DNA of 64,000 nt, taken from the IMG/VR virus record IMGVR_UViG_3300045988_126112, positions 32,001-96,000 of that record; one strand, given 5' to 3'. The notes below the pieces were generated by a model. That model was not told where the DNA came from. It was given only the letters and a program-made list of their open reading frames with translations, and did not search any database. Both the position numbers and the translations under genes were made by a program. Positions within the stretch are counted from its first letter, which is position 1; the number at the start of each line of letters is the position of its first letter. This document shows positions 3,393-45,524 of the stretch, one piece after another. This DNA is from a virus.

Positions 3393-3935
3393 ATGATAAA
3401 CAATTCATTATTTACAAGTAAAGACCAAACATGGGAAACACCACAAGATTTATTTGACACTTTAAATAACGTATTCAATTTTGAAGTAGACGTATGTGCA
3501 GTTCCTGAAACTGCTAAGTGTAGTTATTTTTATACACCTGAAATAGATGGTTTATCTCAAACTTGGGATAATACATGTTGGATGAATCCTCCTTATGGAA
3601 GAGAACAAGTTAAATGGATAGAAAAAGCATACAGAGAAAGTTTAAAAACTGGCACTACTGTTGTATGTTTAATACCTGCTAGACCTGATACAAAGGTCTG
3701 GCAGAATATTATATTTCCAAATGCATCAAACATATGTTTCTTAAAAGGAAGACTTAAGTTTGGAAACTCAAAGGACTCAGCTCCTTTTCCATCAGCATTA
3801 ATAGTATTTGGAGATGTTAATCAACAACAATTAGAAGTATTAAACCAATTAGGATATTCAGTTAATGTACTACCTACAGATAGAGTTGTGATACATTATC
3901 ACTATGAACATCCAGGTGGAATAAGATTTTTTTAG
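3393..3935 (+). CDS. Phage-type DNA N6-adenine methyltransferase
   Basis: N-terminal DQTWETPQDLFDTLNNVFNFEVDVCA, then catalytic WMNPPYG, then VVCLIPARPDTKVW. This matches the layout of the phage N6A-MTase family. AAGGAGGA SD. Confidence 0.8.
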   Translation: MINNSLFTSKDQTWETPQDLFDTLNNVFNFEVDVCAVPETAKCSYFYTPEIDGLSQTWDNTCWMNPPYGREQVKWIEKAYRESLKTGTTVVCLIPARPDTKVWQNIIFPNASNICFLKGRLKFGNSKDSAPFPSALIVFGDVNQQQLEVLNQLGYSVNVLPTDRVVIHYHYEHPGGIRFF

Positions 3936-3947
3936 GAGGAAAATAAT

Positions 3948-5120
3948 ATGCATGAAATTATATTGATATTAAATTATGATAAAGACGTTAATAAAGAAAA
4001 ATTAGATCAAGTTATAAGAGAGCAAGTTTATAGTAATTATAATAAACTGTATACGAATACTGGTAAAAATAATTTACATGACTTTATTAAGCAAATAATG
4101 ATAAATGTAGTTGGAGATACATTAGTATTTCCAGATTTTATATTAACACAAGAAGATTTACAAGCATTTTATACTGTAATGAGTGGTGAGTATACTGTAA
4201 ATATTATTCAATTTATAAATAATTGGAATAAAGATAAATTAACTGCAAAAGAATATAATGATAGTGTATTCTATGCTGCTCAATATTGTGATTCAATATA
4301 TCTAGTAAATGAAGCTACAGGATTCTATAAAAATTATAGTGACCATCTTTTAGAAGCTAGATACTTATTAGATATATTATCAAATAATTTAAAACACAAT
4401 TCTAGAGTTCATGATTCAGATAAAGTATTCGATAAAGATATTAATGAATGCTATGAAAAATATTACCCTGAACTTAAGAAAATACCTTATTATGATAAAG
4501 ATGGTAATAGAAATAAAGAATATTTAGATTATGAAGATAAGTATATGAGAGAAGCTATGAGTAAACATGTTATAATTAACTCTCATCATTACTATGATTG
4601 GAAAAATAGTAGCTCAGCAACATTACTAGATTTACTTGAAGCTGTAATTGATGTATATTCTTCTATAATTATAAATACTGAAGAACCTTTAGAATTAGAA
4701 AGATTTATTGACATAGTTAAGAAAAAAGGTATGCTAATAGATATAGAAGATATGATAGCTAATACTATAAGAGAATTAGGATATAAAACTAATGAATCTT
4801 ACTTTATTAGATATAATAGATCTAAACATATAGAAAAAAGAGTGATAGATAATGATGATTATAAACATCTTAGAGGTAAAGAAGCTCTTGATTGGATAAA
4901 AGCAAAGAATGATTATTATTATGAAAACTTTGTTAAATGCTTTATATCTAATATACAATTAATTACATTTACATTTTTTGATGAAAAAACTGGAATGTTT
5001 GTTAATGAAGACCTTAAGAGTATGAATTTTTATTTCGACTTATATTATAATGAAGATGAAAATGATATTAAACTTTTTGCTACTCCGATAGATGATAGTT
5101 TGGATAGAATATTAATATAG
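3948..5120 (+). CDS. Hypothetical protein (390 aa)
   Basis: TAGGAGGA SD; long ORF with no motif recognised. Confidence 0.85.
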   Translation: MHEIILILNYDKDVNKEKLDQVIREQVYSNYNKLYTNTGKNNLHDFIKQIMINVVGDTLVFPDFILTQEDLQAFYTVMSGEYTVNIIQFINNWNKDKLTAKEYNDSVFYAAQYCDSIYLVNEATGFYKNYSDHLLEARYLLDILSNNLKHNSRVHDSDKVFDKDINECYEKYYPELKKIPYYDKDGNRNKEYLDYEDKYMREAMSKHVIINSHHYYDWKNSSSATLLDLLEAVIDVYSSIIINTEEPLELERFIDIVKKKGMLIDIEDMIANTIRELGYKTNESYFIRYNRSKHIEKRVIDNDDYKHLRGKEALDWIKAKNDYYYENFVKCFISNIQLITFTFFDEKTGMFVNEDLKSMNFYFDLYYNEDENDIKLFATPIDDSLDRILI

Positions 5121-5133
5121 GGGGAATAGATAA

Positions 5134-5400
5134 ATGAAAACAAGATTTATTTTTGATAAAAGTAAAAATGTTTGTCCTAAAGAAGTAGAAATAGATTTAG
5201 ATGAGGAAAATATAATACAAAATGTAGAATTTACAGGAGGTTGCTCTGGAAATCTAAAAATGATTTGTAAAATGATACAGGGTAAATCCAGTAAAGAGGT
5301 AATTGAATTATTTAAAGGAAATACTTGTGGAAATAAAGATACATCTTGTTGCAATGAATTAGCAGAAATACTAAAGTTAATAACTGAGGAAGGTGAATAA
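5134..5400 (+). CDS. TSCPD-domain 4-Cys small protein (TIGR03905-like)
   Basis: Pattern C-x..-FTGGCSGN-...-GNTCGNKDTSCCNELA matches the GGCxGN ... CG.k.TSC signature of the small TSCPD family. Confidence 0.65.
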   Translation: MKTRFIFDKSKNVCPKEVEIDLDEENIIQNVEFTGGCSGNLKMICKMIQGKSSKEVIELFKGNTCGNKDTSCCNELAEILKLITEEGE

Positions 5401-5402
5401 AG

Positions 5403-6140
5403 ATGGCTAAAGATATGAATAATAAATTAAGAGCTGAATGTGAGCAATTAATTTATAAAGTATTCGATGCCTTAGATCCTAGCAAAACTAATTCAGATTT
5501 CTATAAAGAGAAATTTTCTAAAATGAGTAATGACCAATTTAAGAAATTTATCTCTTTAAGATTTCCATATAGATTATATTTAACTCCTTTTAAAATAGAA
5601 CCAGGAATACCAGAAGCAGAAAAAGCATTGAAAATTCTTGGTGTACCTATGTTAGAAAAGGTTGCATTACCTTACTTATATCAAGATAAAGATGGTAATC
5701 CAGTTACAAGTAAAGAATGTATGGTTGGGTATATGCATATAAAAAAGGTTCAACAATTCGTTACTAAAAAGAATGCAATGTCTGTAGATATATCTCAAAG
5801 AGATATGAAATCTGGTCTTTTACTTAGTCATGATAAAAATGGTAAAGAATCAGATAGAGAATTTGAATCTTTAACAATATATGGATTAAACAATACAATG
5901 AAAGAGTTTGGTACTGTACGTGCCGATGCTATGGATGCTAAGAACTTAGCATATAATAATATAAATACAGTTGGTAGTTTATCTTTAAAAGAATTAGACA
6001 TAGATGATAAAGATTTATTATCTAAAAATATGATGAATGTATATCTTCTTGGTGCATTAATATATTCTGATGTAATAAATGAAGATTACTATTTACCATA
6101 TACATTAGATAATAAGAAGAAAGAATTAGAAAGAAAATAG
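5403..6140 (+). CDS. Multisubunit RNA polymerase beta-like subunit, stand-alone C-terminal fragment (second beta paralog)
   Basis: PEAEKALKILGVP...LYQDKDGNPVTSKECMVGYMHIKKVQQFVTKKNAMS...DREFESLTIYGL aligns by eye to bacterial beta (...LYDGRTGE...[23 protein letters not shown]...GGQRFGEMEVWALEAYG). It also aligns to the equivalent segment of ORF 11093..13294 (LECGEQYIWRLKQYAEEKFSTVS...VRFGDMETGNM). The GDK..RxGxKGV motif is absent. Confidence 0.55.
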   Translation: MAKDMNNKLRAECEQLIYKVFDALDPSKTNSDFYKEKFSKMSNDQFKKFISLRFPYRLYLTPFKIEPGIPEAEKALKILGVPMLEKVALPYLYQDKDGNPVTSKECMVGYMHIKKVQQFVTKKNAMSVDISQRDMKSGLLLSHDKNGKESDREFESLTIYGLNNTMKEFGTVRADAMDAKNLAYNNINTVGSLSLKELDIDDKDLLSKNMMNVYLLGALIYSDVINEDYYLPYTLDNKKKELERK

Positions 6141-6152
6141 GAGGTGTTTCTA

Positions 6153-6290
6153 ATGACTGAACAATATGGAGTTATAAATGAAGTTGGTGATTTAGGTTTA
6201 GGTTTTACTCCTCTAAGTGAATCTGAACAAAAACAACTTAAAGAAGAAGACAAAAAGAAAAAAGATAAGAAAGATAAAGAAGAAGAATAA
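6153..6290 (+). CDS. Hypothetical small protein (45 aa) with a K/E-rich tail, below the track cutoff
   Basis: TAGGAGGTG SD 7 nt upstream. Translation MTEQYGVINEVGDLGLGFTPLSESEQKQLKEEDKKKKDKKDKEEE; terminator immediately downstream. Confidence 0.6.
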   Translation: MTEQYGVINEVGDLGLGFTPLSESEQKQLKEEDKKKKDKKDKEEE

Positions 6291-6300
6291 TATATAAAAT

Positions 6301-6333
6301 CCTCAGTAGAAATACTGAGGGTTTTTATTTTTT
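6301..6333 (+). terminator. Intrinsic terminator
   Basis: CCTCAGTA-GAAA-TACTGAGG followed by GTTTTTATTTTTT. Confidence 0.8.
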
Positions 6334-6348
6334 AGGAGGATGAGTAAT

Positions 6349-6756
6349 ATGCAATGGAATTATAGAGTTAAAAGATTACTAAAAGCTGGTGAATATAATA
6401 GAAATGGATATATAGTAGATAAAGAAAGTCTAAATAAACATTTAGATACATTAATAAAATATGGCGTTTTACATGTATTAGAACCATTTGAAAATGATGA
6501 AGAAAAGATATTTAAAAATTTAGTTACAGTACCTTTAGAAAAAATAATAGGTAGTGTTTGTGGTTATGATGATGATTATTTTTATTTAAATGATATAATC
6601 AATCCAAAATATGAAGATTGTTTAGATGAATTTTCATGTGAAATGGCTTTACTTATAGATCCAAAGAATGATTATACAAATGAAGATGGGATATTAGTAC
6701 GTAAAGTACATAGAGTATTACAATTAAGATTAATTAAAAATATAGGAGGAAAATAA
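6349..6756 (+). CDS. Hypothetical protein, tandem paralog 1
   Basis: TAGGAGGA lies 9 nt before the ATG at 6349 (track start 6340 abuts the SD). The N-terminus (YRVKRLLKAGEYNRNGYIVDKESLNK) is similar to the next ORF. Confidence 0.8.
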   Translation: MQWNYRVKRLLKAGEYNRNGYIVDKESLNKHLDTLIKYGVLHVLEPFENDEEKIFKNLVTVPLEKIIGSVCGYDDDYFYLNDIINPKYEDCLDEFSCEMALLIDPKNDYTNEDGILVRKVHRVLQLRLIKNIGGK

Positions 6757-6757
6757 A

Positions 6758-7159
6758 ATGAGTGAATTTAAAATCAAAAGATTTTGTGAAGCAGGAAAGA
6801 AAAATGCTAATGGCTATATATTTGAAGTAGAAAGTACTAATAAATGTATAGCTGACTTCTTAGGGGAAGACTTAGTATATGTAGAAAATAAATATGATTC
6901 AGATGGTTTTGCTTTATCAAAACCAATAGAAAAAATAGGAAAATTATCAGGCTTCGACAATGAATATATTTACTGTGATAATTTAAAAGAAGAATATAGA
7001 GATAGAATTGATGATTTAGTAGCAGGATTAATAATTAATGTAGAAGCAGATGAAAACTTCAAAATCTGTGAAGGTGTAGATGCAATAGTAGTTATACCTA
7101 ATAAACTTATAGGTATAAGAGTATGGGACAAAAATAAAAAAGATGTAACAATAAATTAA
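6758..7159 (+). CDS. Hypothetical protein, tandem paralog 2
   Basis: TAGGAGGA SD. FKIKRFCEAGKKNANGYIFEVESTNK parallels the previous ORF, and both share a ...GxDxxYxY.. block. Confidence 0.8.
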   Translation: MSEFKIKRFCEAGKKNANGYIFEVESTNKCIADFLGEDLVYVENKYDSDGFALSKPIEKIGKLSGFDNEYIYCDNLKEEYRDRIDDLVAGLIINVEADENFKICEGVDAIVVIPNKLIGIRVWDKNKKDVTIN

Positions 7160-7188
7160 ATCATTTAAAAACTAGGAGGTAGATATTT

Positions 7189-8307
7189 ATGATATCAATT
7201 AAAGTATTAGGAATAGGAGCAGCAGGAAATAAAGCAGCTGCACAATTAATTAAAAGTGGAGTATTAGAAGAATCTTCAGTAAGATTAATAAATAGTACTC
7301 TAGGAGATGTACCAGACGAATTTCAACAAATAGCAATAGCATTAAGTTCTGTTGATGCTGGTTGTGGTAAAGAAAGATCAATGGCTAAAAACTTAGCTAT
7401 ACAAGCACTTAAAACTAACTTAGGAAGAGAGTTAGCTGAATTAATAACAGATGAAGATAGATTAGTTGTTATAACTACTTCAACTGGTGGTGGAACAGGT
7501 GCAGGTTCTTCATTAATTATAGGACAATATATACAAGAAGTATTAGGTAAAAAAGTAATGATTTATGCATTTACAGGATTTGAAGAAGATGCTAGGGAAC
7601 TTAAAAATACTGTAGAATTCTTCAAAGAAATAAATCCAAGCTTTATAGTTCAAGCTACATCAAATAAGAAATTCTTAGATGAAGCACCTAATAAATTAAA
7701 AGCAGAAGAATTAGCTAATAATGAATTCTGTAATAGAATGAATATAATTACAGGACAAGGAATAGTTAACTCTACTCAAAATATAGACGAAACTGACTTA
7801 TTCAAAATAATAACAACTCCAGGTTATATGGATGCAGGATTTATATCAATGTCTAAACTAAAAAATACTGAACAATTTAATTCAAATATAGTTAATTTCT
7901 TAGATGAAAGACATTCATTAGAAACTTCTAAATCTGCTAAAAGATTAGCTGTAGTTGTTAACTTACAAGATAAATATCAAGATTTTGTAGATTATAAATT
8001 TACTCCATTAAAAGATAGATATGGTGTTCCATTTGAAGTATTCAATCATGTACAAGATGTTCAAGAAAACTTAAGTGATTGTATATGGTTTATATCTTCA
8101 GGAATGGCTATGCCTTTAGATGAAGTACAAGAAATATATGATAAATATATAGAAGAAACAAATAAGATAAATAAAGCTCAAGATAATTTTTTTGATGTAG
8201 CTAATCAAATGGTATCTGAAGATATAGATGATATGTTTGATATAAATACTACTGCAAATAAAGCATCAACTACAAAGACAGCTGAATCATTCTTTGAAAA
8301 CTTATAA
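7189..8307 (+). CDS. Tubulin/FtsZ-superfamily GTPase (PhuZ/TubZ-like)
   Basis: N-terminal IKVLGIGAAGNKAAAQL (G-box 1), tubulin signature TSTGGGTGAGSS, and an acidic C-terminal tail SEDIDDMFDIN. TAGGAGGT SD. Confidence 0.8.
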   Translation: MISIKVLGIGAAGNKAAAQLIKSGVLEESSVRLINSTLGDVPDEFQQIAIALSSVDAGCGKERSMAKNLAIQALKTNLGRELAELITDEDRLVVITTSTGGGTGAGSSLIIGQYIQEVLGKKVMIYAFTGFEEDARELKNTVEFFKEINPSFIVQATSNKKFLDEAPNKLKAEELANNEFCNRMNIITGQGIVNSTQNIDETDLFKIITTPGYMDAGFISMSKLKNTEQFNSNIVNFLDERHSLETSKSAKRLAVVVNLQDKYQDFVDYKFTPLKDRYGVPFEVFNHVQDVQENLSDCIWFISSGMAMPLDEVQEIYDKYIEETNKINKAQDNFFDVANQMVSEDIDDMFDINTTANKASTTKTAESFFENL

Positions 8308-8320
8308 AAATAAAATACAA

Positions 8321-8338
8321 TTATATATTATAAACGTG
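8321..8338 (+). promoter_or_regulatory. Class-A phage promoter-like motif
   Basis: TTATATATTATAAACGTG, upstream of 8374. Confidence 0.55.
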
Positions 8339-8373
8339 TAATAAAATAATAATATATAAAGGAGATGTTATTT

Positions 8374-9285
8374 ATGTTTGAAAGAATGATAAACAACGAT
8401 TTTTTAAAAGAGGGTATGCCATTGCCAGACCCTAAACCATTACACAAAATTACATTTTTGGATAATCCTAAACTTTATCCAGATATGTATAAAGAAAAAT
8501 TTCAAAATTTAGATGCATTAGAAGTAAATGAAATATACAATATATTGGAAGGCAGTATAAGTGTAATATTAGAAAGAGCTGCAGATAATGAAGAATTTGA
8601 AAAAGACTTATTGAAGAATGATAAAATCTTAAATATATTATTGCGTTTATTTGTTGACAATTCTTCAAAAGGTTCTTATTTAGATTATATTTCTTTGTAT
8701 AGATTCAATTCAATAGCTGTATATTGTTTTGAAAATGTACCTAATTTAGCTAATATGTATATCCAATTAGGATACTATGCTAATAAATATATGATAGACA
8801 AAATAACTCCAATAGGAGAAGTTAGTCAAGAAGATGTAACTAAAATGATGTTATATTTTCTTAGAGGTGGTGACCCATTAAGTAATATAGTAAGATTGAA
8901 TAATTATGTTATAAAACTACCTAACAAGATTATCACAGATTATTATATGCTTAGATTGTATGAAACATTATGTTCCGATTTAGGTTTAGTAGGTTTATCT
9001 GCTATAGCTAAATCAGTATTGTTTGATTTTAATATTATAACAAATGATAATGAAAATAAAAATATGAGTGCTATGATTAATGCAGTATTATCATTGATAG
9101 ACCAAAATCCATCAATAACTAGAACTGTATTACTTGATATATATAATTATGCATCAACACCATTAAATGGAAAATACAGAGGTATGAGAATTAGTTTATC
9201 TAAAGGATTATCTCCAAGTGAATTTCCAATGTTATGTCAAACAATAAATTTATTGATGATGCAAGAACAAATATACTTACCATAA
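8374..9285 (+). CDS. Hypothetical protein (303 aa)
   Basis: GGAG lies 9 nt before the ATG at 8374; a class-A motif is at 8321..8338. Confidence 0.8.
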   Translation: MFERMINNDFLKEGMPLPDPKPLHKITFLDNPKLYPDMYKEKFQNLDALEVNEIYNILEGSISVILERAADNEEFEKDLLKNDKILNILLRLFVDNSSKGSYLDYISLYRFNSIAVYCFENVPNLANMYIQLGYYANKYMIDKITPIGEVSQEDVTKMMLYFLRGGDPLSNIVRLNNYVIKLPNKIITDYYMLRLYETLCSDLGLVGLSAIAKSVLFDFNIITNDNENKNMSAMINAVLSLIDQNPSITRTVLLDIYNYASTPLNGKYRGMRISLSKGLSPSEFPMLCQTINLLMMQEQIYLP

Positions 9286-9358
9286 AAAATAATATGAATG
9301 TAACATATAAGTATATAGAAATACTTATGTTTACTTTCTCTTTATAAATAAATGGTTG

Positions 9359-9395
9359 ATATAGAGCTGTTAATTCAGCTCTATATTTTTTTTTC
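9359..9395 (+). terminator. Intrinsic terminator
   Basis: ATATAGAGCTG-TTAAT-CAGCTCTATAT followed by T9. Confidence 0.8.
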
Positions 9396-9410
9396 AGGAG
9401 GTGTAATATT

Positions 9411-9776
9411 ATGAAATTAAAGAAATTATTAGTTCCAGTTATATTAGCAGGTTGTTTACTTACAGGCTGTCAAAAACCTGTATATGATAAACGATTTGCA
9501 GATGAAGTAAAAATAACTTATATGGAGTATAAACCATCAGAATATAAAATGCGATATAACCCAGCTACAAAATCTTGGGTTCCTTATCATACTGATGAAG
9601 AATATCTTGTAGAAGTAAAATATGATAAAGATGGACACAGAACATATTTTTATGATAAATATAGCTATGAAGCTGTTAAAGATAAAAAAATAGGTGATAA
9701 TGTAAAAGCTTTAGTTCATGTATATGTTTATGAAGATAGTACAGCTTCATATACAATAGAAAGTTTAAAAAAATAG
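9411..9776 (+). CDS. Putative lipoprotein (121 aa)
   Basis: MKLKKLLVPVILAGCLLTGCQKP has a basic n-region, a hydrophobic core and lipobox-like LAGC/LTGC. CAGGAGGT SD. Confidence 0.65.
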   Translation: MKLKKLLVPVILAGCLLTGCQKPVYDKRFADEVKITYMEYKPSEYKMRYNPATKSWVPYHTDEEYLVEVKYDKDGHRTYFYDKYSYEAVKDKKIGDNVKALVHVYVYEDSTASYTIESLKK

Positions 9777-9788
9777 GAGGATGATATT

Positions 9789-11030
9789 ATGTCATTATTA
9801 GTACAATCATTTAGAGAAAAAGTTAGTAAAGAAAAAGATATTAGAAAGAAAGATGAATCAAAACCTATGACTTGTTATAGTACAGGATTCTTAGGATTTG
9901 ATATGAGAAATGGTTCAATTCAATATGGTAAAAGAGATGGTAAAGAGTATAAGTATATATCTGCAGGAATAGTAGATGGTACTTATAATATGATTATAGG
10001 AGGTACTGGTACAGGTAAAACAACATTTGTTTTACAAGCATCAGGAAATATAGTCAGACCATTTGAAAACTCTGCTATATTCTTAGATGATGCTGAAGCC
10101 GCATCATCTGCAGTAGTTAGTAGAAACCAACAATTATTAGGAATATATGACCCAGAAGAATATAAAAGAAAAGTAATAGCTAGAAATACTGGTATAACAG
10201 CTGAAAATCTATATGAAAGAATAGTAATGATACATGATATGAAATTAGCTGAACCAGATAAATATATGTATGATACTGGTCAATATGATATGTTTGGAGA
10301 AAAGATATATAAACTTCAACCAACAGTATATATACTAGATTCATTAATGCAATTAATGCCTGATGCAGTTACAGAAGAAGAGTCTTTATCAGGACAAATG
10401 AGTGTAACTTCAACAGCTAAAACAAATGCAGCTATATTTAGAAGAATAATACCTAAATTAAAAGCAGCTAATATAATCTTATTTGTAATAAATCATATAT
10501 TAGAAGACGTTAATATATCTATCTTTAAGAAAAAACCAGATGTTCCATATCTTAAACAAGGTGAACGTCTTCCAGGTGGTAAAACAATACCATACTTAGC
10601 AAATAATTTAATAAGATTTGATTTATCTAGTAAGTTGAAATCTGATGAAGGATTCTATATAGATGGTCATATAGTATCTATATCATTCAATAAATCTAGA
10701 TCTAATAAAGCAGGTAAATCTGTAAATATGGTATTTGACCAAGAAAGAGGATATGACTATGATTTATCATTATATCTTTTACTTAAAGAAAATAAACGTA
10801 TTAAAGGAGCAGGAGCTTATCTATATCTAGAAAGCTGTCCAACTATAAAATTTGCTCAAAAACAATTTAAAGAAAAACTTATGCAGCATCCTGAACTTCA
10901 AGATGCTTTTAATAAAGAAGTAGCACCTTTACTAATGGAAATGGTATCTGAAGTTACAGAAGAAGAATCAGAGAGAAGTGTTGTTAGTAAAAACTTATTC
11001 AGCATGATGAATGATGAATTAACAGCATAA
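9789..11030 (+). CDS. RecA/UvsX-like recombinase ATPase
   Basis: YSTGFLGFDMRNG parallels RecA STGSLSLDIALG. Walker A is GGTGTGKTT at about residue 71 and Walker B is TVYILDSLMQL. SGQMSVTSTAKTNAAIFRRIIPKLKAANIILFVINHI parallels the RecA L1 to INQ segment. Confidence 0.75.
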   Translation: MSLLVQSFREKVSKEKDIRKKDESKPMTCYSTGFLGFDMRNGSIQYGKRDGKEYKYISAGIVDGTYNMIIGGTGTGKTTFVLQASGNIVRPFENSAIFLDDAEAASSAVVSRNQQLLGIYDPEEYKRKVIARNTGITAENLYERIVMIHDMKLAEPDKYMYDTGQYDMFGEKIYKLQPTVYILDSLMQLMPDAVTEEESLSGQMSVTSTAKTNAAIFRRIIPKLKAANIILFVINHILEDVNISIFKKKPDVPYLKQGERLPGGKTIPYLANNLIRFDLSSKLKSDEGFYIDGHIVSISFNKSRSNKAGKSVNMVFDQERGYDYDLSLYLLLKENKRIKGAGAYLYLESCPTIKFAQKQFKEKLMQHPELQDAFNKEVAPLLMEMVSEVTEEESERSVVSKNLFSMMNDELTA

Positions 11031-11092: not shown

Positions 11093-13294
11093 ATGAAAAT
11101 TGATGTTATCGACAAAGTAAAGGAAATGGAGGATCAATTTCCTTCAATGGAGTATTTATTATGTAAAGGATTGATGATGCCATTCAATCCTTCAAATTCA
11201 GGTAGTAGAAAACAAATGATGGCAGCTCAACTTGAGCAAGGATTAGAGTTATATCATTCTGAATTACCAAGAGTACAAACTGGATATGAAAATAGATTTG
11301 GTGACAGATCTTCTTCATTAATAATTGCAGATAAAGAGTATGTGGTAGTTCACAAAATAAGTAAATTTAGTTTTGATCCAGATAGATTCTATTATCTAAT
11401 TATCTATGATACTAAGGGTAATTCATTTGATATGATTACTAAACAAGAGTATCAATATATAACAGAATCTTATGGAATCTTATACAATACAAAATATATG
11501 GATAAACTTAGACCAGGTGTTAAGATTAATAAAGGTGATACAATAAGAAAATCTTTAGCTTATGATGAATTTAATAATAGATGTGATGGTGTAAATCTTA
11601 TGTCTACTTATTTATCATCAGAAGAAACAAAAGAAGATGGTATTTGGATTTCTGAAACAGCTTCTAAGCTATTGGCGTGTCCATTAGTAAAGAAAGTACA
11701 AATTCAAATAAATGATAATGATATACCATTAAATCTGTACTATGATGATGTAGAAAGAGATTATAAATCATTTCCAGATGTAGGTGAAAATACAGATAGA
11801 ACTAATGGTGTATTAATGGGTATAAGACGTATGAAGAAAGAAGAAATACTATTCACTCAAAACAAAAATAATTTATCAAAAATAATGCTTAGTGATGATG
11901 TATTTACAGCTTCAGGAACTGTAGTAGATGTTGATATATATTGTAATAATCCAGAAACATTATCAAAATATGTTCATTTTGGACAATTACAATTTTATCA
12001 TCAAGAACAAATGGCTTTCATGAATGATTTTATATCTAAAGTTGGTCCATTGATAGAGTCTGGATATAATTGCTCTTATGAGATGAAAAAATTATATCAT
12101 AGATTCAAAAAGATATATTATGGTGGGCAATATCTTAAAGATAATGTCTTCTCAAATACAATATTAGAATTGACATTAGTTGAATATAATCCAGTTGAAG
12201 TTGGTGATAAGATAGCTAACAGATATGGAGGTAAAGGTGTTGTATCAAAAATAAGTCCAGATAATATGATGCCTTTATTAGATAATGGTAGAAGGGTAGA
12301 TTTAATCTATAATGGTTCTACTTGTATAAATAGAGAGAATAATGGACAATTAAATGAAATGTTTCTTAATTATGCAAGTAATAGAATTGTGGATCATGTA
12401 AGAAGTTTAGATGGTTCATTTGACTTAAATTATACTATAAATCTATATATAGATTATCTTAATATTCTTAATCCTAATTTAGCTGAAAGAATGGAGCAAT
12501 ATATACTTTCAGCAGAATTGGATGACCAAGTTGCATTTATGCAATATATATTTGATGAAGGATTTATACTTTCATTAGACCCTATGTGTGATATCAATAT
12601 AGATACATTATATAAGATTTGGAAGAAATTCGGATTCATAAAACAATACAATGTTGTTGTACCTCAAATAGGTTCAGATGGTAATTATAGATATGTAAAA
12701 ACTAGAAGAACTCTTGAATGTGGTGAACAATATATTTGGCGTTTAAAACAATATGCTGAAGAAAAGTTTTCTACAGTTTCATTATCAGCAACAAACTTAA
12801 AAAATGAAAATACTAGAAACAGCAGTAAGAAATCATATAAATCTCCACATGCAAAAACTTGTGTAAGATTTGGTGATATGGAAACTGGTAATATGCTTCA
12901 TTTAGGTATAGAACCATTGATTACAAATCTAATGATGCTATCTTTAGCACCTAAAGCTAGAAGAAGATTAGGAACTGAATTAACTGAAGGTCCTTTATTT
13001 GATTTAGATGTTAAACTTCATCCTGAAGATAGTAACAGAAGTGTAGAAATATTGAATGCTTATCTTATAACTATAGGATTGAAACTTACTTTTACTAAAG
13101 TGCCTAAAAAGTTTATATATCCTATAAAATATAATATAAATGGTGTTCCAGTTTTAAATAAAGATGATACTACTTATCATCCTGCAATAACTTATATTGA
13201 TAAGAAAGGAAATCAATTTATAGGAGATTATGAACCTGTAAATCCTATAGATAATTTAAAAGAAGTTATTCATTGGAACAGAAAGGAAAAATAA
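11093..13294 (+). CDS. Multisubunit RNA polymerase beta subunit, C-terminal half
   Basis: GDKIANRYGGKGVVSKI (compare GDKMAGRHGNKGVIS), DLIYNGSTCINRENNGQLNEM (compare DIVLNPLGVPSRMNIGQ), YIWRLKQY and VRFGDMETGNM (compare RFGEMEVWAL). Confidence 0.85.
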   Translation: MKIDVIDKVKEMEDQFPSMEYLLCKGLMMPFNPSNSGSRKQMMAAQLEQGLELYHSELPRVQTGYENRFGDRSSSLIIADKEYVVVHKISKFSFDPDRFYYLIIYDTKGNSFDMITKQEYQYITESYGILYNTKYMDKLRPGVKINKGDTIRKSLAYDEFNNRCDGVNLMSTYLSSEETKEDGIWISETASKLLACPLVKKVQIQINDNDIPLNLYYDDVERDYKSFPDVGENTDRTNGVLMGIRRMKKEEILFTQNKNNLSKIMLSDDVFTASGTVVDVDIYCNNPETLSKYVHFGQLQFYHQEQMAFMNDFISKVGPLIESGYNCSYEMKKLYHRFKKIYYGGQYLKDNVFSNTILELTLVEYNPVEVGDKIANRYGGKGVVSKISPDNMMPLLDNGRRVDLIYNGSTCINRENNGQLNEMFLNYASNRIVDHVRSLDGSFDLNYTINLYIDYLNILNPNLAERMEQYILSAELDDQVAFMQYIFDEGFILSLDPMCDINIDTLYKIWKKFGFIKQYNVVVPQIGSDGNYRYVKTRRTLECGEQYIWRLKQYAEEKFSTVSLSATNLKNENTRNSSKKSYKSPHAKTCVRFGDMETGNMLHLGIEPLITNLMMLSLAPKARRRLGTELTEGPLFDLDVKLHPEDSNRSVEILNAYLITIGLKLTFTKVPKKFIYPIKYNINGVPVLNKDDTTYHPAITYIDKKGNQFIGDYEPVNPIDNLKEVIHWNRKEK

Positions 13295-30430: not shown

Positions 30431-30742
30431 ATGACAGTAATAGAACTATTGAATGCTTTAAAAATAACAGGGGAACTTAGAAAATATTTTCAAGATGCTT
30501 TAAATTATGTAATTGAAGAAGAACAAAATTTCTTAGATATAAATCTTGCAAAAGATATATATCCACATTTAGCAGAGATATATGAACTATCTCCATTAAC
30601 AGTAAAGACTAAGTTTATAAGAATGGTTTGCAACTTCAATAAAGATCATCCTAGAATCTTCAAAAAATATTTTGGTGTAAATACTAAAATGACTGTCAAA
30701 AAAGTTTTAACTTTGATGTTAGTAAAATTAGATGTAAGATAA
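30431..30742 (+). CDS. Hypothetical protein (103 aa)
   Basis: AAGGGGGA SD; terminator at 30751..30785. Confidence 0.8.
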   Translation: MTVIELLNALKITGELRKYFQDALNYVIEEEQNFLDINLAKDIYPHLAEIYELSPLTVKTKFIRMVCNFNKDHPRIFKKYFGVNTKMTVKKVLTLMLVKLDVR

Positions 30743-33862: not shown

Positions 33863-35950
33863 ATGCTAAACCCACTAGATATAAATAAACGTAAACATGA
33901 AGTAGAACAAGCTATATCTCCACAAAATTTATCAATGACTGAACGTTCAGCAAGAAAAGGGTCTATATCTAAAATGGAAGAATGTTTTAAATATTGGAAT
34001 TCTTTTTCAGTAGATGAAACATTATCTTTACATCATACATTAGATATCGTAAAAGAATGTTTATCTCATAATAATGATGACTATGTAAAAGATAAGATAT
34101 CATTTATACTTGAGAATAATCTAATACCTAAACTACACAAAAAAGAATCTTTATTAGAAGTAAATACCTTTTCCATAGATTGTGGTTTACCTAATTTAAA
34201 ACTTCTATCTAAATGTAATGAAATGATTACATATGATAGAATACTTAGAAATCAAAATACTTTAGAAAACGGTATAGAAGTTACATCATATAGAGATTTA
34301 GAGGAATGTGTAATGGATATATGTAATGCATATAATAATTCTGGATTATCTATGAAAGAAAAATATGCTTTAAGTGTTGAGAGTTCATTATATACAAAGT
34401 ATTTATTATCTAATATAATTATGGTAAATGAATCAGATGAAGATATAATAGACTTGGTCGATTTATTTTTTGCTTTAAACTGTAATGAGCAATTTGAATA
34501 TGATAAAATTAATCCTATATCTTTAAATGAAGATATAAATTCTTTTTCATATTCAGTTGTAAATGGAATGATGAGTGGTATGTATATAAATGGTGGATGG
34601 ACTGTAGATCAAATGCTATCTAGATTACCTCATGGAGAACTTAAAAAATATGAAAAAGCTAATAAGTTACATCCTTTAGATGTTATAGACTTAGAGATGT
34701 CTAAATCTATAAGTGCTTATACTAATAATGAAAGTGGTGATTCATATAGAAGTGAATTTATTAAAAAGAAAATAGACGGCAGAAGTTATAATTGCATAGC
34801 TTTTTATGAAAATGCTTCTTTAAGCAAATTATCTATCTTATATAAAAAAGGAGAAAATCTAGTTATAGTTCCTATATATTCTAAATTTGGTGAATCTCAA
34901 CCACTTATTGTAGAAAGAGGAGTAGCTAGAAATCTATATGAAGAAACTGATAATCTAATATATCTTGATGAGAAAAAACTTATGAAGAAATTAGAAAAGA
35001 AAGTTAAATCTATAGACTTTAAGAATATAAAAACTCTAAATGAATTAAAGAAAAAGATAGATAATATGTGTACTAAATTCTTTACTAAGAAAGATACTTC
35101 TATATTAGATGAAGTTCCTGGAGTATTTACTTGTGTAAGAGCTAGTTGTATAGCTGGTGCTTTTGCTGTTCATCCTATGTTTGGTGCTGTTGCTTTTATG
35201 ACTAATAAGTTTATGAAGATGCATTTTGAGAGAAAACAAAAAGATAAAGTTCTTAAACAATATGATGCTGAAATTAAAAAAGTTGAAAGCAAAATAGAGA
35301 AATGTAAAAGCGATAAGACTAAAGAAAACTATAAGAAGTACCTTAAAGAATTAAAAGATAATCGTAGTACTCTTGAAGAATATTATGATCAATTCTTTAC
35401 TGACGATGAATTATATGATAACTTTGACGAATCAACTGAAGTATTAAATGAATTATCACTTACAAATAGTCTTAAATTAGCTAAAGAAAAATTTAAGAAA
35501 AATTTTGTAAAAATGTCAGATAAAGAAAAGAAACTATCTACTCAAATGGATAATGCATACGATAGATTTGTATATCAAGTTGAAAAGAATCTTTCTAATA
35601 AAAATAGAGAAGCAGTTATTAAAGGTTCTTTAATACCTTCATTCTCTGCTATGTTAAAACTTGCAATGGCTGCTGCTACAGTTAGTTTTATAAGTCCAGC
35701 ATTAGCTGGTATAACTGTTATGGGTGGTATAGCTGCATCTAAAAATGCTACAAGAAAAGAAAGAAAATATATATTAGATGAAATAGATATACAATTAGAA
35801 ATTGTAGAAAAGAAACTTCAATTAGCTGAAAATAATAATGACATGAAAGCATATGAACAACTTCTTAGACTAAAAAGACAATTAGAAAGCGAAAAGAACA
35901 GAATTATCTACAAAAGAAAAAGATCTATTGTTGCTACTAAATATAACTAA
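33863..35950 (+). CDS. Large hypothetical protein (695 aa) with hydrophobic helices and a K/E coiled-coil in the C-terminal half
   Basis: AAAGGAGGA SD. Hydrophobic segments are VFTCVRASCIAGAFAVHPMFGAVAFM and PSFSAMLKLAMAAATVSFISPALAGITVMGGIAA. It is the first gene of the block that continues to the scaffold-like and capsid-candidate genes. Confidence 0.8.
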   Translation: MLNPLDINKRKHEVEQAISPQNLSMTERSARKGSISKMEECFKYWNSFSVDETLSLHHTLDIVKECLSHNNDDYVKDKISFILENNLIPKLHKKESLLEVNTFSIDCGLPNLKLLSKCNEMITYDRILRNQNTLENGIEVTSYRDLEECVMDICNAYNNSGLSMKEKYALSVESSLYTKYLLSNIIMVNESDEDIIDLVDLFFALNCNEQFEYDKINPISLNEDINSFSYSVVNGMMSGMYINGGWTVDQMLSRLPHGELKKYEKANKLHPLDVIDLEMSKSISAYTNNESGDSYRSEFIKKKIDGRSYNCIAFYENASLSKLSILYKKGENLVIVPIYSKFGESQPLIVERGVARNLYEETDNLIYLDEKKLMKKLEKKVKSIDFKNIKTLNELKKKIDNMCTKFFTKKDTSILDEVPGVFTCVRASCIAGAFAVHPMFGAVAFMTNKFMKMHFERKQKDKVLKQYDAEIKKVESKIEKCKSDKTKENYKKYLKELKDNRSTLEEYYDQFFTDDELYDNFDESTEVLNELSLTNSLKLAKEKFKKNFVKMSDKEKKLSTQMDNAYDRFVYQVEKNLSNKNREAVIKGSLIPSFSAMLKLAMAAATVSFISPALAGITVMGGIAASKNATRKERKYILDEIDIQLEIVEKKLQLAENNNDMKAYEQLLRLKRQLESEKNRIIYKRKRSIVATKYN

Positions 35951-45510: not shown

Positions 45511-45524
45511 GGAGGATGATTAGT

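What the first reader, a model, noticed from the sequence alone, without database searches (positions are those of the whole stretch)
7189..8307. Tubulin/FtsZ-family GTPase in a low-GC, Gram-positive-style jumbo phage that also carries split multisubunit RNAPs
Seen: GIGAAGNKAA (G1 box), the canonical tubulin signature STGGGTGAGSS, and an acidic C-terminal tail (SEDIDDMFDIN).

Established knowledge:
- PhuZ tubulins build the spindle that centres the chimallin-bounded phage nucleus in phiKZ-like (Chimalliviridae) phages. These also carry split multisubunit RNAPs, and the described examples infect Gram-negative hosts.
- TubZ tubulins segregate plasmids and plasmid-prophages in Bacillus and Clostridium (for example phage c-st).

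This window combines a tubulin with AR9/phiKZ-style RNAP fragments in a genome with Firmicute-type SD sites and terminators. The protein could therefore be a PhuZ analogue, implying a nucleus-like compartment in a Gram-positive host, or a TubZ-type partition motor. Its GGGTGxG signature is closer to FtsZ/TubZ than to the GGGSGSG that I recall for PhuZ. By eye I could not recognise a chimallin homolog among the unassigned large ORFs (1583, 3948, 33863, 45525, 48363).
Basis: partly seen in the sequence, partly recalled or inferred. Interest (0 to 1): 0.72.

Follow-up and report, generated by a model that had tools for sequence, protein, structure and literature searches.

The report
Phage tubulin without a phage nucleus
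An uncultured ~245 kb human-gut phage related to the AR9/PBS1 group carries a real, apparently active tubulin/FtsZ-type GTPase from an undescribed family closest to phage TubZ proteins, yet it has none of the partners (nuclear-shell protein, or TubR/centromere) that explain what known phage tubulins do.

Summary
ORF 7189-8307 (+, 372 aa) contains all three quoted motifs. It passes Pfam Tubulin only narrowly (33.6 vs 33 bits), but the AlphaFold2 model (pLDDT 86) matches tubulin/FtsZ structures at Foldseek probability 1.0.

It is not an FtsZ orthologue (26.6 vs 295 bits) and not a PhuZ (10.9 bits on a PhuZ HMM). It belongs to a large family from uncultured phages (163 clusters at E<=1e-30). The nearest described relatives are Bacillus phage G gp138 (76.6 bits) and Clostridium phage c-st TubZ (38.7 bits; top Foldseek hit). 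It shares with c-st TubZ and PhuZ a G-x-G-K-x-R motif and a tail made of an acidic patch plus an aromatic tip.

The phage is AR9/PBS1-like. No chimallin was found in ~84 kb of this genome or in the whole genome of its nearest cultured relative, LPJP1, which also lacks the tubulin. No TubR, TubY or centromere repeats accompany the gene. Instead it sits in a terminator-bounded unit inside a conserved replication/transcription block, next to a conserved, fast-evolving ~300-aa gene.

Best reading: a GTP-driven filament that organises phage DNA or assembly during lytic infection. The function itself is inferred, not shown. The nucleus hypothesis is not supported.

The parts
7189..8307 (+). Tubulin/FtsZ-superfamily GTPase gene (372 aa): GTPase domain, core helix H7, activation domain, helix H11 (res 310-326), then a flexible tail
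   Evidence: ORF; Pfam; AF2; Foldseek; homologues
7174..7179 (+). Shine-Dalgarno AGGAGG, 9 nt before the ATG
   Evidence: sequence read
7210..7239 (+). G1 / T1 phosphate-binding box GIGAAGNKAA (G10, A12, G13, N14, K15 invariant in 40 homologues)
7360..7377 (+). GCGKER (res 58-63): a G-x-G-K-x-R motif shared with c-st TubZ and six PhuZs and absent from FtsZ (GAGANP)
   Evidence: alignment; conservation
7480..7512 (+). T4 tubulin signature STGGGTGAGSS (S98, G101, G102, T103, G104 invariant)
7780..7797 (+). T7 loop NIDETD (N198, D200, D203 invariant), aligned with FtsZ NVDFAD; these are the residues that complete the GTPase site of the neighbouring subunit in a filament
8182..8193 (+). Tail motif 1, DNFF (D332 nearly invariant, F334 invariant)
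8215..8247 (+). Tail motif 2, acidic patch SEDIDDMFDIN; it aligns with the acidic patch of c-st TubZ and the acidic C-terminal region of the PhuZs (tail alignments are soft evidence)
   Evidence: PMC5322520; PMC3678025
8284..8304 (+). Tail motif 3, C-terminal tip ESFFENL (F368 invariant; predicted short helix 365-371); it resembles the c-st TubZ tip DFFSKYM
6296..6335 (+). Intrinsic terminator (13-bp stem plus T-run) closing the preceding unit; marks the left boundary of the tubulin transcription unit
6340..6756 (+). 138-aa ORF, paralogue of the next ORF; function unknown; lineage-specific and not conserved with the tubulin
6758..7159 (+). 133-aa ORF, paralogue of the previous one; no HTH or TubR signal
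8365..9285 (+). 306-aa ORF immediately downstream; homologous positional partner in L005, L006 and L007 at about 22% identity; candidate tubulin partner or regulator; unrelated to TubY/TubR
9358..9397 (+). Intrinsic terminator (12-bp stem plus T-run); right boundary of the four-gene unit
5403..6140 (+). Context: 245-aa msRNAP fragment (phrog_3233), the conserved left flank of the tubulin slot
9789..11030 (+). Context: UvsX/RecA-like recombinase, the conserved right flank of the slot
11093..13294 (+). Context: msRNAP beta-type subunit (Rpb2_6; phrog_3295)

Best explanation
ORF 7189-8307 encodes a functional, polymerising tubulin/FtsZ-superfamily GTPase. It belongs to a previously undescribed family of phage tubulins that lies inside the TubZ/PhuZ radiation, nearest to Bacillus phage G gp138 and Clostridium phage c-st TubZ. 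The family is a vertically inherited gene of a clade of uncultured AR9/PBS1-like jumbo phages (134-263 kb) of gut Bacillota.

Proposed mechanism: GTP-bound monomers assemble head to tail. The T7 loop (N198/D200/D203) of one subunit completes the GTPase site of the next, so hydrolysis makes the filaments dynamic. The flexible tail (acidic patch 343-353, aromatic tip 366-372, and the DNFF motif) lies along the neighbouring subunit to stabilise the filament, and it also serves as a docking site for a partner, as shown for c-st TubZ. The best candidate partner is the co-transcribed, conserved ~300-aa downstream protein.

The gene is transcribed within a block of replication, recombination and transcription genes. 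The filaments most likely position or move a phage cargo during lytic infection: replicating phage DNA or a replication factory, or capsids. That is a PhuZ-like job done without a chimallin shell and without a TubR/tubC centromere.

Shown here: fold, motifs, family membership, gene context, and the absence of known partners in the sequence examined. Inferred: polymerisation, the role of the tail, the cargo, and the timing of expression. The confidence given (0.5) is for the whole statement including the lytic-cycle function; the identity part alone is about 0.95.
For: Fold and motifs: Pfam; PDB profile hits to FtsZ, CetZ and TubZ; AF2 pLDDT 86; Foldseek probability 1.0, with c-st TubZ 3v3t/4xcq as top hits at 1.9e-17; invariant G1, T4 and T7 residues in 40 homologues.

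Placement: family HMM scores phage G gp138 at 76.6 bits, c-st TubZ 38.7, E. coli FtsZ 34.1 and PhuZs 7-22; hhalign against c-st TubZ gives 97.5% over 261 columns; G-x-G-K-x-R is shared with c-st TubZ and PhuZ but not FtsZ; a sister group has c-st-like C-terminal tips.

Tail precedent: in c-st TubZ the tail contacts the upper subunit and binds TubRC and TubY (PMC5322520); in PhuZ the tail is essential for polymerisation (PMC7950403, PMC3678025).

Core-gene behaviour and context: identity of 67/43/43/39% tracks UvsX at 60/49/49/45% across four related phages, and the position between the RNAP fragment and UvsX is the same in each; two terminators bracket the unit; the downstream ORF is conserved.

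Lytic-type phage: msRNAPs, capsid and prohead protease genes, and AR9-like nearest relatives; contigs of 243-246 kb recur in independent gut samples; in GTDB representative genomes the family is seen only in MAGs.

No chimallin, TubR, TubY or iterons.
Against: Nothing here is functional evidence. Polymerisation, GTPase activity, expression timing and cargo are all untested. The nearest characterised relative, c-st TubZ, is a partition protein, so homology points towards DNA segregation rather than a lytic-cycle role. The nearest cultured relatives of the phage do without any tubulin, so the protein is not required for this lifestyle in general. About 66% of the genome was unreadable with the tools, so a chimallin, a TubR-like adaptor or a centromere could lie elsewhere. 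The tail alignment with PhuZ and c-st involves disordered, low-complexity sequence and is weak evidence. PhuZ-like cargo pushing has so far only been described against a chimallin shell.
Confidence: 0.5

Rival explanations
1. TubZ-type (type III) segregation motor. The phage can persist as an extrachromosomal element (pseudolysogeny or carrier state, possibly through sporulation), and the tubulin filaments pull copies apart through an adaptor bound to the tail tip, as in phage c-st.
For: c-st TubZ is the top Foldseek hit and is detectable by plain phmmer and by hhalign at 97.5%. The tail architecture and terminal aromatic tip resemble c-st TubZ, whose tip binds the TubRC segrosome (PMC5322520). 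The next relative, phage G gp138, is preceded by a small ORF that by eye looks like a TubR-type winged helix. Iyer et al. propose tubulin-mediated segregation in pseudolysogenic jumbo phages (PMC7824862).
Against: There is no TubR-like or TubY-like gene in the unit or anywhere in ~84 kb. There is no iteron array; the one purine-rich stretch is coding. The upstream neighbours vary between relatives (small paralogues, dUTPase, SLT, glucosaminidase), unlike an autoregulated tubRZ operon. No integrase or Par genes were seen. The gene sits in a lytic replication/transcription block. The family was not found in any isolate genome among GTDB representatives.
Confidence: 0.22
2. True PhuZ analogue. 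The phage builds a nucleus-like compartment, made either of a chimallin encoded in the unread two thirds of the genome or of a non-homologous shell protein, and this tubulin centres or rotates it.
For: The tubulin, msRNAP and Cpn60 triad that correlates with nucleus-forming phages is present in the window (PMC7824862). G-x-G-K-x-R and an acidic tail are shared with PhuZs. One Bacillus phage is reported within the chimallin clade (PMC10299810).
Against: The chimallin HMM is negative over ~84 kb and in related loci. ORF 33863 and the 871-aa GNAT protein are not chimallin. LPJP1's whole genome is negative while the positive controls score 756-860 bits. AR9-like phages are described as chimallin-less (PMC10299810, PMC13282480). 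In five chimalliviruses chmA sits directly upstream of an nvRNAP beta' gene, and no comparable chimallin-like ORF was detected anywhere in the sequence examined here. The PhuZ HMM scores the protein at only 10.9 bits.
Confidence: 0.1
3. Host-division interference. This would be an FtsZ-like decoy that co-assembles with or competes against host FtsZ or its tail-binding partners, blocking or redirecting cell division or sporulation septation during infection.
For: By sequence the N-terminal GTPase domain is closest to FtsZ (PDB 1w5f at 2.6e-14; TIGR00065 at E 3.5e-6). G1 and T4 are FtsZ-like. There is a disordered linker plus a short C-terminal peptide, as in FtsZ.
Against: Identity to FtsZs is only about 18%, and the TIGR00065 score is 26.6 against a cutoff of 295. 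The tail lacks the FtsZ D-I-P-x-F-L peptide. The G-x-G-K-x-R motif and the C-terminal domain group with phage TubZ/PhuZ rather than FtsZ. Co-polymerisation at this divergence is unlikely.
Confidence: 0.08

Closest known systems
TubZ of Clostridium botulinum phage c-st (CST189; PDB 3v3t, 4xcq)
   Same: Tubulin/FtsZ fold, and the top Foldseek hit (1.9e-17). hhalign gives 97.5% over 261 columns. The GCGKER motif is identical. Helix H11 is followed by a long flexible tail with an acidic patch and an aromatic tip near the C-terminus. Both come from low-GC Clostridia-type phages.
   Different: Only about 15-22% identity. c-st TubZ sits in a tubR-tubZ-tubY operon with a centromere on a plasmid-prophage (PMC5322520, PMC7950403). 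Here there is no TubR, TubY or iterons, the gene lies in the replication/transcription block of an msRNAP jumbo phage, and a different conserved ~300-aa gene follows it.
Bacillus phage G gp138 ('putative FtsZ-like cell division protein'), uncharacterised
   Same: The closest protein from a cultured phage: 76.6 bits on the family HMM. Similar length (376 aa). The host is Gram-positive and the phage is very large.
   Different: Phage G is a 498 kb phage of a different lineage. gp138 has GAGRNR in place of GCGKER and a basic rather than acidic tail. It is directly preceded by a small winged-helix-like ORF, gp137. Its function is unknown.
PhuZ of Chimalliviridae (phiKZ gp39, 201phi2-1 gp59, Goslar)
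   Same: A phage-encoded tubulin in a jumbo phage with split msRNAPs. Shares the G-x-G-K-x-R motif, the T7 aspartates, and H11 followed by an acidic tail. It is the model for a lytic-cycle cargo-positioning role.
   Different: The PhuZ HMM scores the protein at 10.9 bits, and the first PhuZ appears at Foldseek rank 47. The T4 loop is GGTG[AS]G rather than GG[AGS]SGS. The tail is longer, with extra motifs. No chimallin partner was found. PhuZ is reported to lack H6 (PMC7950403), whereas this model has a short helix at 159-165 before H7.
Cellular FtsZ and archaeal CetZ
   Same: The best sequence-level hits for the N-terminal GTPase domain. G1 and T4 are FtsZ-like. There is a disordered linker plus a terminal peptide.
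   Different: Fails the FtsZ equivalog model (26.6 vs 295 bits). FtsZ matches cover only residues 1 to about 217. It lacks the FtsZ C-terminal peptide. Its context is a phage, not a division gene cluster.

Membership tests
Tubulin/FtsZ superfamily | Profile match to the GTPase domain (Pfam PF00091) at or above the curated cutoff | tested here: met
   33.6 bits vs cutoff 33, E 6e-8. This is borderline for the single sequence, but most homologues carry PF00091, and the family profile hits FtsZ at 2.6e-14.
Tubulin/FtsZ superfamily | Two-domain fold: Rossmann-like GTPase domain, core helix H7, C-terminal activation domain | tested here: met
   AF2 pLDDT 86.1, pTM 0.84. Foldseek probability 1.00 to TubZ, CetZ and FtsZ, with query TM-scores of 0.64-0.72.
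Tubulin/FtsZ superfamily | Nucleotide-binding motifs G1 (GxGxxG) and T4 signature [SAG]GGTG[SA]G | tested here: met
   GIGAAGNK at 8-15 and GGGTGAG at 100-106, both invariant in 40 homologues.
Tubulin/FtsZ superfamily | T7 loop acidic residues that activate GTP hydrolysis in the neighbouring subunit | tested here: met
   N198-I-D200-E-T-D203 is invariant and aligns with FtsZ N-V-D-F-A-D. Catalysis itself was not tested.
PhuZ (Chimalliviridae tubulin) | Sequence membership, i.e. a clear score on a PhuZ profile | tested here: not met
   An HMM of 6 diverse PhuZs scores the protein at 10.9 bits, while members score 427-499 and c-st TubZ scores 65. No PhuZ chain appears in the PDB profile search at E<=10.
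PhuZ (Chimalliviridae tubulin) | Encoded by a chimallin-encoding (nucleus-forming) phage | tested here: not met
   The chimallin HMM is negative in the window, in both 10 kb flanks and in related loci. ORF 33863 gives 0.1% against the chimallin profile. The whole LPJP1 genome is negative. About 66% of this phage's genome could not be read.
PhuZ (Chimalliviridae tubulin) | H11 followed by an acidic-knuckle tail used for polymerisation; H6 absent | tested here: inconclusive
   H11 (310-326) and an acidic patch aligning with the PhuZ acidic region are present. However, a short helix at 159-165 precedes H7, and the tail alignment is soft evidence. The tail's role in polymerisation is not testable here.
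TubZ type III partition system (TubZRC, with or without TubY) | Tubulin-like motor related to plasmid or prophage TubZ | tested here: met
   c-st TubZ is the top Foldseek hit. hhalign gives 97.5%, E 6.5e-12. Bt and Bc TubZ are also hit at about 1e-16.
TubZ type III partition system (TubZRC, with or without TubY) | Small winged-helix centromere-binding protein TubR encoded directly upstream | tested here: not met
   The upstream ORFs (138 and 133 aa) have no HTH, Pfam or PHROG match and are not conserved with the tubulin. c-st TubR and phage G gp137 find nothing in the window, flanks or related loci. No structure prediction was made for these ORFs.
TubZ type III partition system (TubZRC, with or without TubY) | Centromere tubC: an array of short direct repeats next to the operon | tested here: not met
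   No repeat family with more than 2 copies in 5000-9500. The TRF hit at 6244-6283 lies inside a 45-aa ORF.
TubZ type III partition system (TubZRC, with or without TubY) | TubY regulator downstream | tested here: not met
   A profile of the downstream ORF against c-st TubY gives 0.3% probability, and phmmer gives nothing.
TubZ type III partition system (TubZRC, with or without TubY) | Carried on a low-copy plasmid or plasmid-prophage | not testable with these tools
   Contigs look like a lytic msRNAP jumbo phage and occur only in metagenomes and MAGs. The lifestyle cannot be read from sequence alone.
FtsZ (cell-division orthologue) | Score at or above the NCBIfam TIGR00065 equivalog cutoff | tested here: not met
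   26.6 bits vs 295.2.
FtsZ (cell-division orthologue) | Conserved C-terminal peptide (D-I-P-x-F-L type) for FtsA/SepF/ZipA binding | tested here: not met
   The tail ends in ESFFENL and has D-x-M-F-D; no D-I-P-x-F-L is present.

The most novel reading that the evidence does not exclude
A clade of gut Bacillota jumbo phages that lack chimallin nevertheless runs a tubulin cytoskeleton during lytic infection, using a new partner set: the conserved, fast-evolving ~300-aa downstream protein docking on the multi-motif tail. The filaments would position a replication factory or a non-chimallin compartment. This would show that the phage 'spindle' is older than, or independent of, the phage nucleus, and that it exists in Gram-positive-type hosts.
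Probability: 0.2. Interest if true: 0.85.

Novelty: new variant of a known kind. Interest (0 to 1): 0.6.

Why it matters
Known phage tubulins fall into two functional types: PhuZ, which centres and rotates the chimallin nucleus, and c-st TubZ, which segregates a plasmid-prophage through TubR/tubC. This family is large (163 clusters at 50% identity with E<=1e-30), is inherited like a core gene, and sits in a phage lineage (AR9/PBS1-like, msRNAP-positive, chimallin-negative) for which I found no report of a tubulin. It comes without either known partner set. If it is a lytic-cycle cytoskeleton, three things follow. It separates the tubulin spindle from the phage nucleus in evolution. It offers a way to ask what tubulin filaments push or pull in a phage that has no shell. 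It extends phage cytoskeletons to abundant human-gut Bacillota phages. If instead it is a partition motor, it would be evidence for a heritable carrier state in this jumbo-phage group. In either case the conserved tail motifs and the downstream gene are concrete targets for experiments.

Tried and rejected
(1) tblastn of the protein against GenBank phages at E 1e-3 and at E 10, against plasmids, and with the family consensus all gave no match. These negatives are weak, because the family HMM scores phage G gp138 at 76.6 bits and tblastn missed it.

(2) PHROGs gave no family for the tubulin.

(3) ORF 33863 as chimallin was rejected: no Pfam or PHROG match; PDB phmmer gave only spurious F-BAR hits; hhalign gave 0.1%; the AF2 model was poor (pLDDT 58.6) and mostly helical or coiled-coil; Foldseek found nothing at E<=1e-3. 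Its function remains unknown, and my guess that it is a portal was not confirmed.

(4) ORF 52978(-) as chimallin was rejected: it shows only a zinc-finger-like stretch.

(5) The 871-aa GNAT-containing ORF at 62637 and beyond was rejected as chimallin: it has a canonical GNAT plus a P-loop, and hhalign gives 0.2%.

(6) The purine-rich repeat at 6244-6283 as a centromere was rejected because it is coding.

(7) The upstream 138/133-aa paralogues as TubR were rejected on lack of conservation and lack of any HTH signal.

(8) The downstream ORF as TubY was rejected.

(9) The sigma70-type promoter scan is uninformative: 46 hits against 49.5 expected, and the phage has its own RNAPs.

(10) Oliva 2012 and Kraemer 2012 could not be read because they are not held, so I used later open papers instead.

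(11) Walking along the 246 kb contig was not possible, because look-ups are limited to proteins encoded in the window.
Full report
**1. The observation.** The ORF listing gives an ORF at 7189..8307 on the + strand (372 aa, ATG start). An AGGAGG Shine-Dalgarno lies at 7174-7179, 9 nt upstream. Pfam PF00091 (Tubulin/FtsZ GTPase domain) matches residues 3-148 at E=6e-8, only just above the curated cutoff (33.6 vs 33 bits). PHROGs has no family for it. phmmer against PDB sequences finds only FtsZs, the best being 1w5f at 7e-9. The window has about 26% GC throughout.

**2. Fold.** A search of 5.8 billion proteins returned 292 homologues. An alignment of 40 of them (A1) shows invariant G10/A12/G13/N14/K15 (G1), S98/G101/G102/T103/G104 (T4) and N198/D200/D203 (T7), plus F334 and F368 in the tail. 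AlphaFold2 on A1 gave a confident model (pLDDT 86.1, pTM 0.84). It has the expected order of strands and helices, a long helix at 310-326 (H11), a disordered stretch at 342-362 and a terminal helix at 365-371. Foldseek against the PDB gives probability 1.00 to tubulin/FtsZ-fold proteins. Phage c-st TubZ (3v3t 1.9e-17, 4xcq) comes first, followed closely by CetZ1, Bacillus TubZs and S. aureus FtsZ. The first PhuZ (Goslar, 9pm9) is at rank 47 (1.8e-14). In the viral library the top hit is an uncultured 'Myoviridae sp. ctcyQ27' protein at 38% identity, a member of the same family. The protein is therefore a true member of the superfamily, with all the residues needed for GTP binding and for polymerisation-coupled hydrolysis.

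**3. Which kind of tubulin.** The FtsZ equivalog model TIGR00065 scores 26.6 bits against a cutoff of 295, so this is not an FtsZ orthologue. The A1 profile against PDB sequences hits FtsZ and CetZ best, but only over the N-terminal domain (about 1-217). It hits c-st TubZ over nearly the full length (23-370 vs 25-358), and it hits no PhuZ at E<=10.

I fetched reference genes from public phage records: phiKZ PhuZ and chimallin, the c-st tubR-tubZ-tubY operon, five more PhuZs, phage G gp138 and E. coli FtsZ. With a fixed database size, the family HMM scores phage G gp138 at 76.6 bits, c-st TubZ at 38.7, E. coli FtsZ at 34.1 and six PhuZs at 7.5-22.2. A PhuZ HMM scores c-st TubZ at 65.3, phage G gp138 at 33.0, this protein at 10.9 and FtsZ at 6.2. 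hhalign of A1 against c-st TubZ gives 97.5% probability over 261 columns. This gives a chain of relatedness: PhuZ, c-st TubZ, phage G gp138, this family, FtsZ.

A joint alignment shows a G-x-G-K-x-R motif (GCGKER at residues 58-63). It is identical in c-st TubZ, present in all six PhuZs, and replaced by GAGANP in FtsZ.

An exhaustive profile search of 1.84 billion cluster representatives finds 163 clusters at E<=1e-30 and 487 at E<=1e-10. The weakest full-length hits form a sister group with the same motifs. Their C-termini (EIDMKIFSKY, NIEDIMKNYF, DLDLDFLSDRY) closely resemble the c-st TubZ terminus EIDINDFFSKYM.

**4. The tail.** After H11 the family has three conserved short motifs: D-x-F-F (332-335), an acidic D-x-M-F-[DN] patch (within 343-353), and a terminal K-x-x-F-[FLM] tip (ESFFENL in the window). 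Longer members add further copies of the form [KR]-E-[ED]-[FY]-[LMI]. In the joint alignment the acidic patch lines up with the c-st TubZ acidic patch and with the acidic C-terminal region of the PhuZs, and the tip lines up with the c-st DFF. This is soft evidence, because tails are disordered.

The literature gives the functional precedent. In c-st TubZ the tail is an acidic patch plus an uncharged 8-residue tip. It contacts the upper subunit in the filament and is the docking site for the TubRC segrosome and for TubY (PMC5322520). In PhuZ, H11 plus the acidic knuckle is essential for polymerisation, and this tail is said to be conserved in clostridial phages such as c-st (PMC7950403, PMC3678025).

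**5. The phage.** The window carries the following:
- msRNAP fragments at 5403 (phrog_3233), 11093 (Rpb2_6, phrog_3295) and 50730(-) (phrog_2986), and weakly at 45516
- a UvsX-like recombinase (9789)
- an NAD-dependent ligase (13273)
- an SMC/SbcC-like ATPase (19760)
- a PolB exonuclease domain (23657)
- a helicase (26425)
- Cpn60 (42917)
- Toprim (47099)
- a major head protein (37121)
- a prohead protease (31561-)
- a Dam methylase (3393)

By tblastn, the RNAP beta' fragment is closest to Listeria phage LPJP1 (35%), Bacillus phages Goe21, BpSp, AR9 and PBS1 (32-34%) and Staphylococcus jumbo phages (about 32%), with phiKZ-like phages at about 25%. The capsid protein matches only LPJP1.

The identical tubulin occurs on 243-246 kb contigs from independent human-gut metagenomes. 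NCBI holds it in a MAG labelled Romboutsia timonensis. Other family members are binned with Paraclostridium, Solobacterium, Phascolarctobacterium, Acidaminococcaceae, Bacilli and 'Tenericutes', always in MAGs and never in isolates. A Bacillota host is well supported. Some relatives may infect diderm Negativicutes, so 'Gram-positive' should not be taken strictly for the whole family.

**6. Gene neighbourhood.** Two strong intrinsic terminators (+6296-6325 and +9358-9387) bracket a unit of four ORFs: 138 aa, 133 aa (paralogues of each other), the tubulin, and 306 aa. In four relatives whose tubulins are 67, 43, 43 and 39% identical, on contigs of 82-254 kb, the tubulin lies at the same place in a conserved block: GyrA, a ~393-aa protein (phrog_2921), a ~245-aa RNAP fragment, a variable slot, the tubulin, a ~297-aa ORF, UvsX, RNAP beta, then ligase. 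Its divergence tracks that of the flanking core genes (UvsX 60/49/49/45%), so it is vertically inherited.

The variable slot holds small paralogues, a dUTPase, an SLT or a glucosaminidase. The upstream ORFs are therefore not obligate partners. The downstream ~300-aa ORFs are homologous to one another (BLAST 6e-11, 3e-10 and 1e-20 in a chain) but only about 22% identical, and the gene is missing in one lineage (L008). It is the only gene consistently linked to the tubulin.

In LPJP1 the flanking genes are present (p393 after gyrA, the p245-like fragment, UvsX, rpoB, ligase), but the slot holds only a 193-aa ORF.

**7. Testing the nucleus hypothesis.** phiKZ chimallin finds homologues only in phages of Gram-negative hosts in GenBank. 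An HMM built from six diverse chimallins (phiKZ, 201phi2-1, RAY, Goslar, RP12, LucasX) finds nothing in any stop-to-stop segment of the window or of loci L001 and L005-L008 (best E 0.86). It also finds nothing in the 10 kb beyond each end of the window. In the complete LPJP1 genome it likewise finds nothing, while the controls score 756-860 bits.

The only chimallin-sized unannotated ORF, 33863 (695 aa), gives 0.1% probability against the chimallin profile, against 99.9% for the Goslar positive control. Its AF2 model is poor and largely helical, with no significant fold match. ORF 52978(-) and the 871-aa GNAT/P-loop protein starting at 62637 are not chimallin either.

Published work states that PBS1, PALS_2 and phiR1-37 encode msRNAPs but no chimallin, and that PhuZ itself is accessory, being absent from a third of Chimalliviridae (PMC10299810). 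A 2026 review places AR9-like phages outside the nucleus-forming family (PMC13282480). The nucleus reading is therefore not supported. It is not formally excluded, because about two thirds of this genome could not be read.

**8. Testing the partition hypothesis.** c-st TubR, c-st TubY and phage G gp137 find nothing in the window, flanks or related loci. No ORF in the unit has an HTH signal. There is no iteron array, and the TRF hit at 6244-6283 is the Lys/Glu-rich end of a 45-aa ORF. No integrase or Par genes were seen in the ORFs scanned. The operon anatomy that defines type III partition systems is therefore absent, although the motor itself is most like a TubZ.

**9. Conclusion and likelihoods.** Identity is secure (about 0.95): an intact tubulin/FtsZ-superfamily GTPase of a new family within the phage TubZ/PhuZ radiation. 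Function is inferred. I favour (about 0.5) a dynamic GTP-driven filament acting in the lytic cycle to position or move phage DNA, a replication factory or capsids. In this model the tail both stabilises the filament and recruits a partner, possibly the downstream ~300-aa protein. The rivals are TubZ-type segregation in a carrier state (about 0.22), a true PhuZ role with an undetected shell (about 0.10), and interference with host FtsZ (about 0.08).

**10. Novelty.** Neither the 2025 metagenomic survey of chimallin/PhuZ phages (PMC12625630), which required both chimallin and PhuZ genes, nor the 2021 and 2026 jumbo-phage overviews (PMC7824862, PMC13282480) describe a tubulin in AR9-like or chimallin-less msRNAP phages. 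Database entries for this family are named only 'cell division GTPase FtsZ' or 'hypothetical protein'. I rate it a new variant of a known kind.

Noticed in passing
window 62637-64000 (runs off the end); full ORF at L036:11030-13645: An 871-aa multidomain protein with a canonical N-terminal GNAT acetyltransferase (QSKGIG motif) and a P-loop (GLSGSGKT). It is not chimallin (hhalign 0.2%). Function unknown.
   Followed up: partly
window 8365-9285 and its positional orthologues L005:9194-10087, L006:9264-10154, L007:9305-10201: A ~300-aa ORF always directly downstream of the tubulin. The copies are homologous but only about 22% identical, so it evolves much faster than the tubulin. It has no known domain and is unrelated to TubY/TubR. 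It is a candidate tubulin partner.
   Followed up: partly
window 33863-35950: A 695-aa ORF with no Pfam, PHROG or PDB match. It is conserved only in close relatives (11 hits). It is predicted to be mostly helical with long C-terminal coiled coils and a hydrophobic Gly/Ala-rich segment. It lies upstream of a scaffold-like gene and the capsid gene.
   Followed up: partly
window 35963-37063: An acidic protein built of imperfect 15-69 nt tandem repeats (D/E-rich with PPGG units), directly upstream of the major head protein. It is probably a scaffold. It coincides with the only GC bump in the window (0.30).
   Followed up: no
window 42917-44629: A phage-encoded Cpn60/GroEL-type chaperonin. Together with the msRNAP and the tubulin it reproduces the phyletic triad noted by Iyer et al. 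2021. LPJP1 has groL and msRNAP but no tubulin.
   Followed up: partly
window 30431-30742: A 103-aa ORF with a weak, sub-threshold match to the Spo0A C-terminal DNA-binding domain (18.9 bits vs cutoff 25). If real, it hints at manipulation of host sporulation.
   Followed up: no
window 52978-54636 (-): A 551-aa ORF (phrog_18873, function unknown) with a C2H2 zinc-finger-like stretch at residues 331-399 (ZNF568, 7e-7) and a repeat-rich N-terminal part.
   Followed up: no
window 3393-3935; L005:7495-7962; L008:117-629: A Dam-type N6-adenine methyltransferase in the window, and dUTPase genes in two relatives. This suggests the clade has ordinary thymine DNA, unlike the uracil DNA that I recall being reported for AR9/PBS1.
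   Followed up: no
L021:1192-1488 (Bacillus phage G gp137): A 98-aa ORF abutting the tubulin-like gp138. By eye it looks like a TubR-type winged helix (RYFITKNG vs c-st TubR FYITPNG), but it is not significant by phmmer. Phage G may carry a tubRZ-like pair.
   Followed up: partly
L009, L012, L013, L014, L015 (phiKZ, RAY, Goslar, RP12, LucasX): In all five chimalliviruses fetched, the chimallin gene lies immediately upstream of a non-virion RNAP beta' subunit gene. This could serve as a synteny marker when hunting for divergent chimallins.
   Followed up: no
protein P0001 and loci L023-L029: Contigs of these jumbo phages are binned into bacterial MAGs (Romboutsia timonensis, Paraclostridium, Solobacterium, Phascolarctobacterium, Acidaminococcaceae, 'Tenericutes'). 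This is useful as a host hint, but it is also contamination of those MAGs.
   Followed up: no
method note (vs 67): tblastn with the window protein or with the family consensus returns no match in GenBank phages even at E=1-10, yet the family HMM scores phage G gp138 at 76.6 bits. tblastn negatives for this AT-rich, K/E-rich family should not be trusted.
   Followed up: yes
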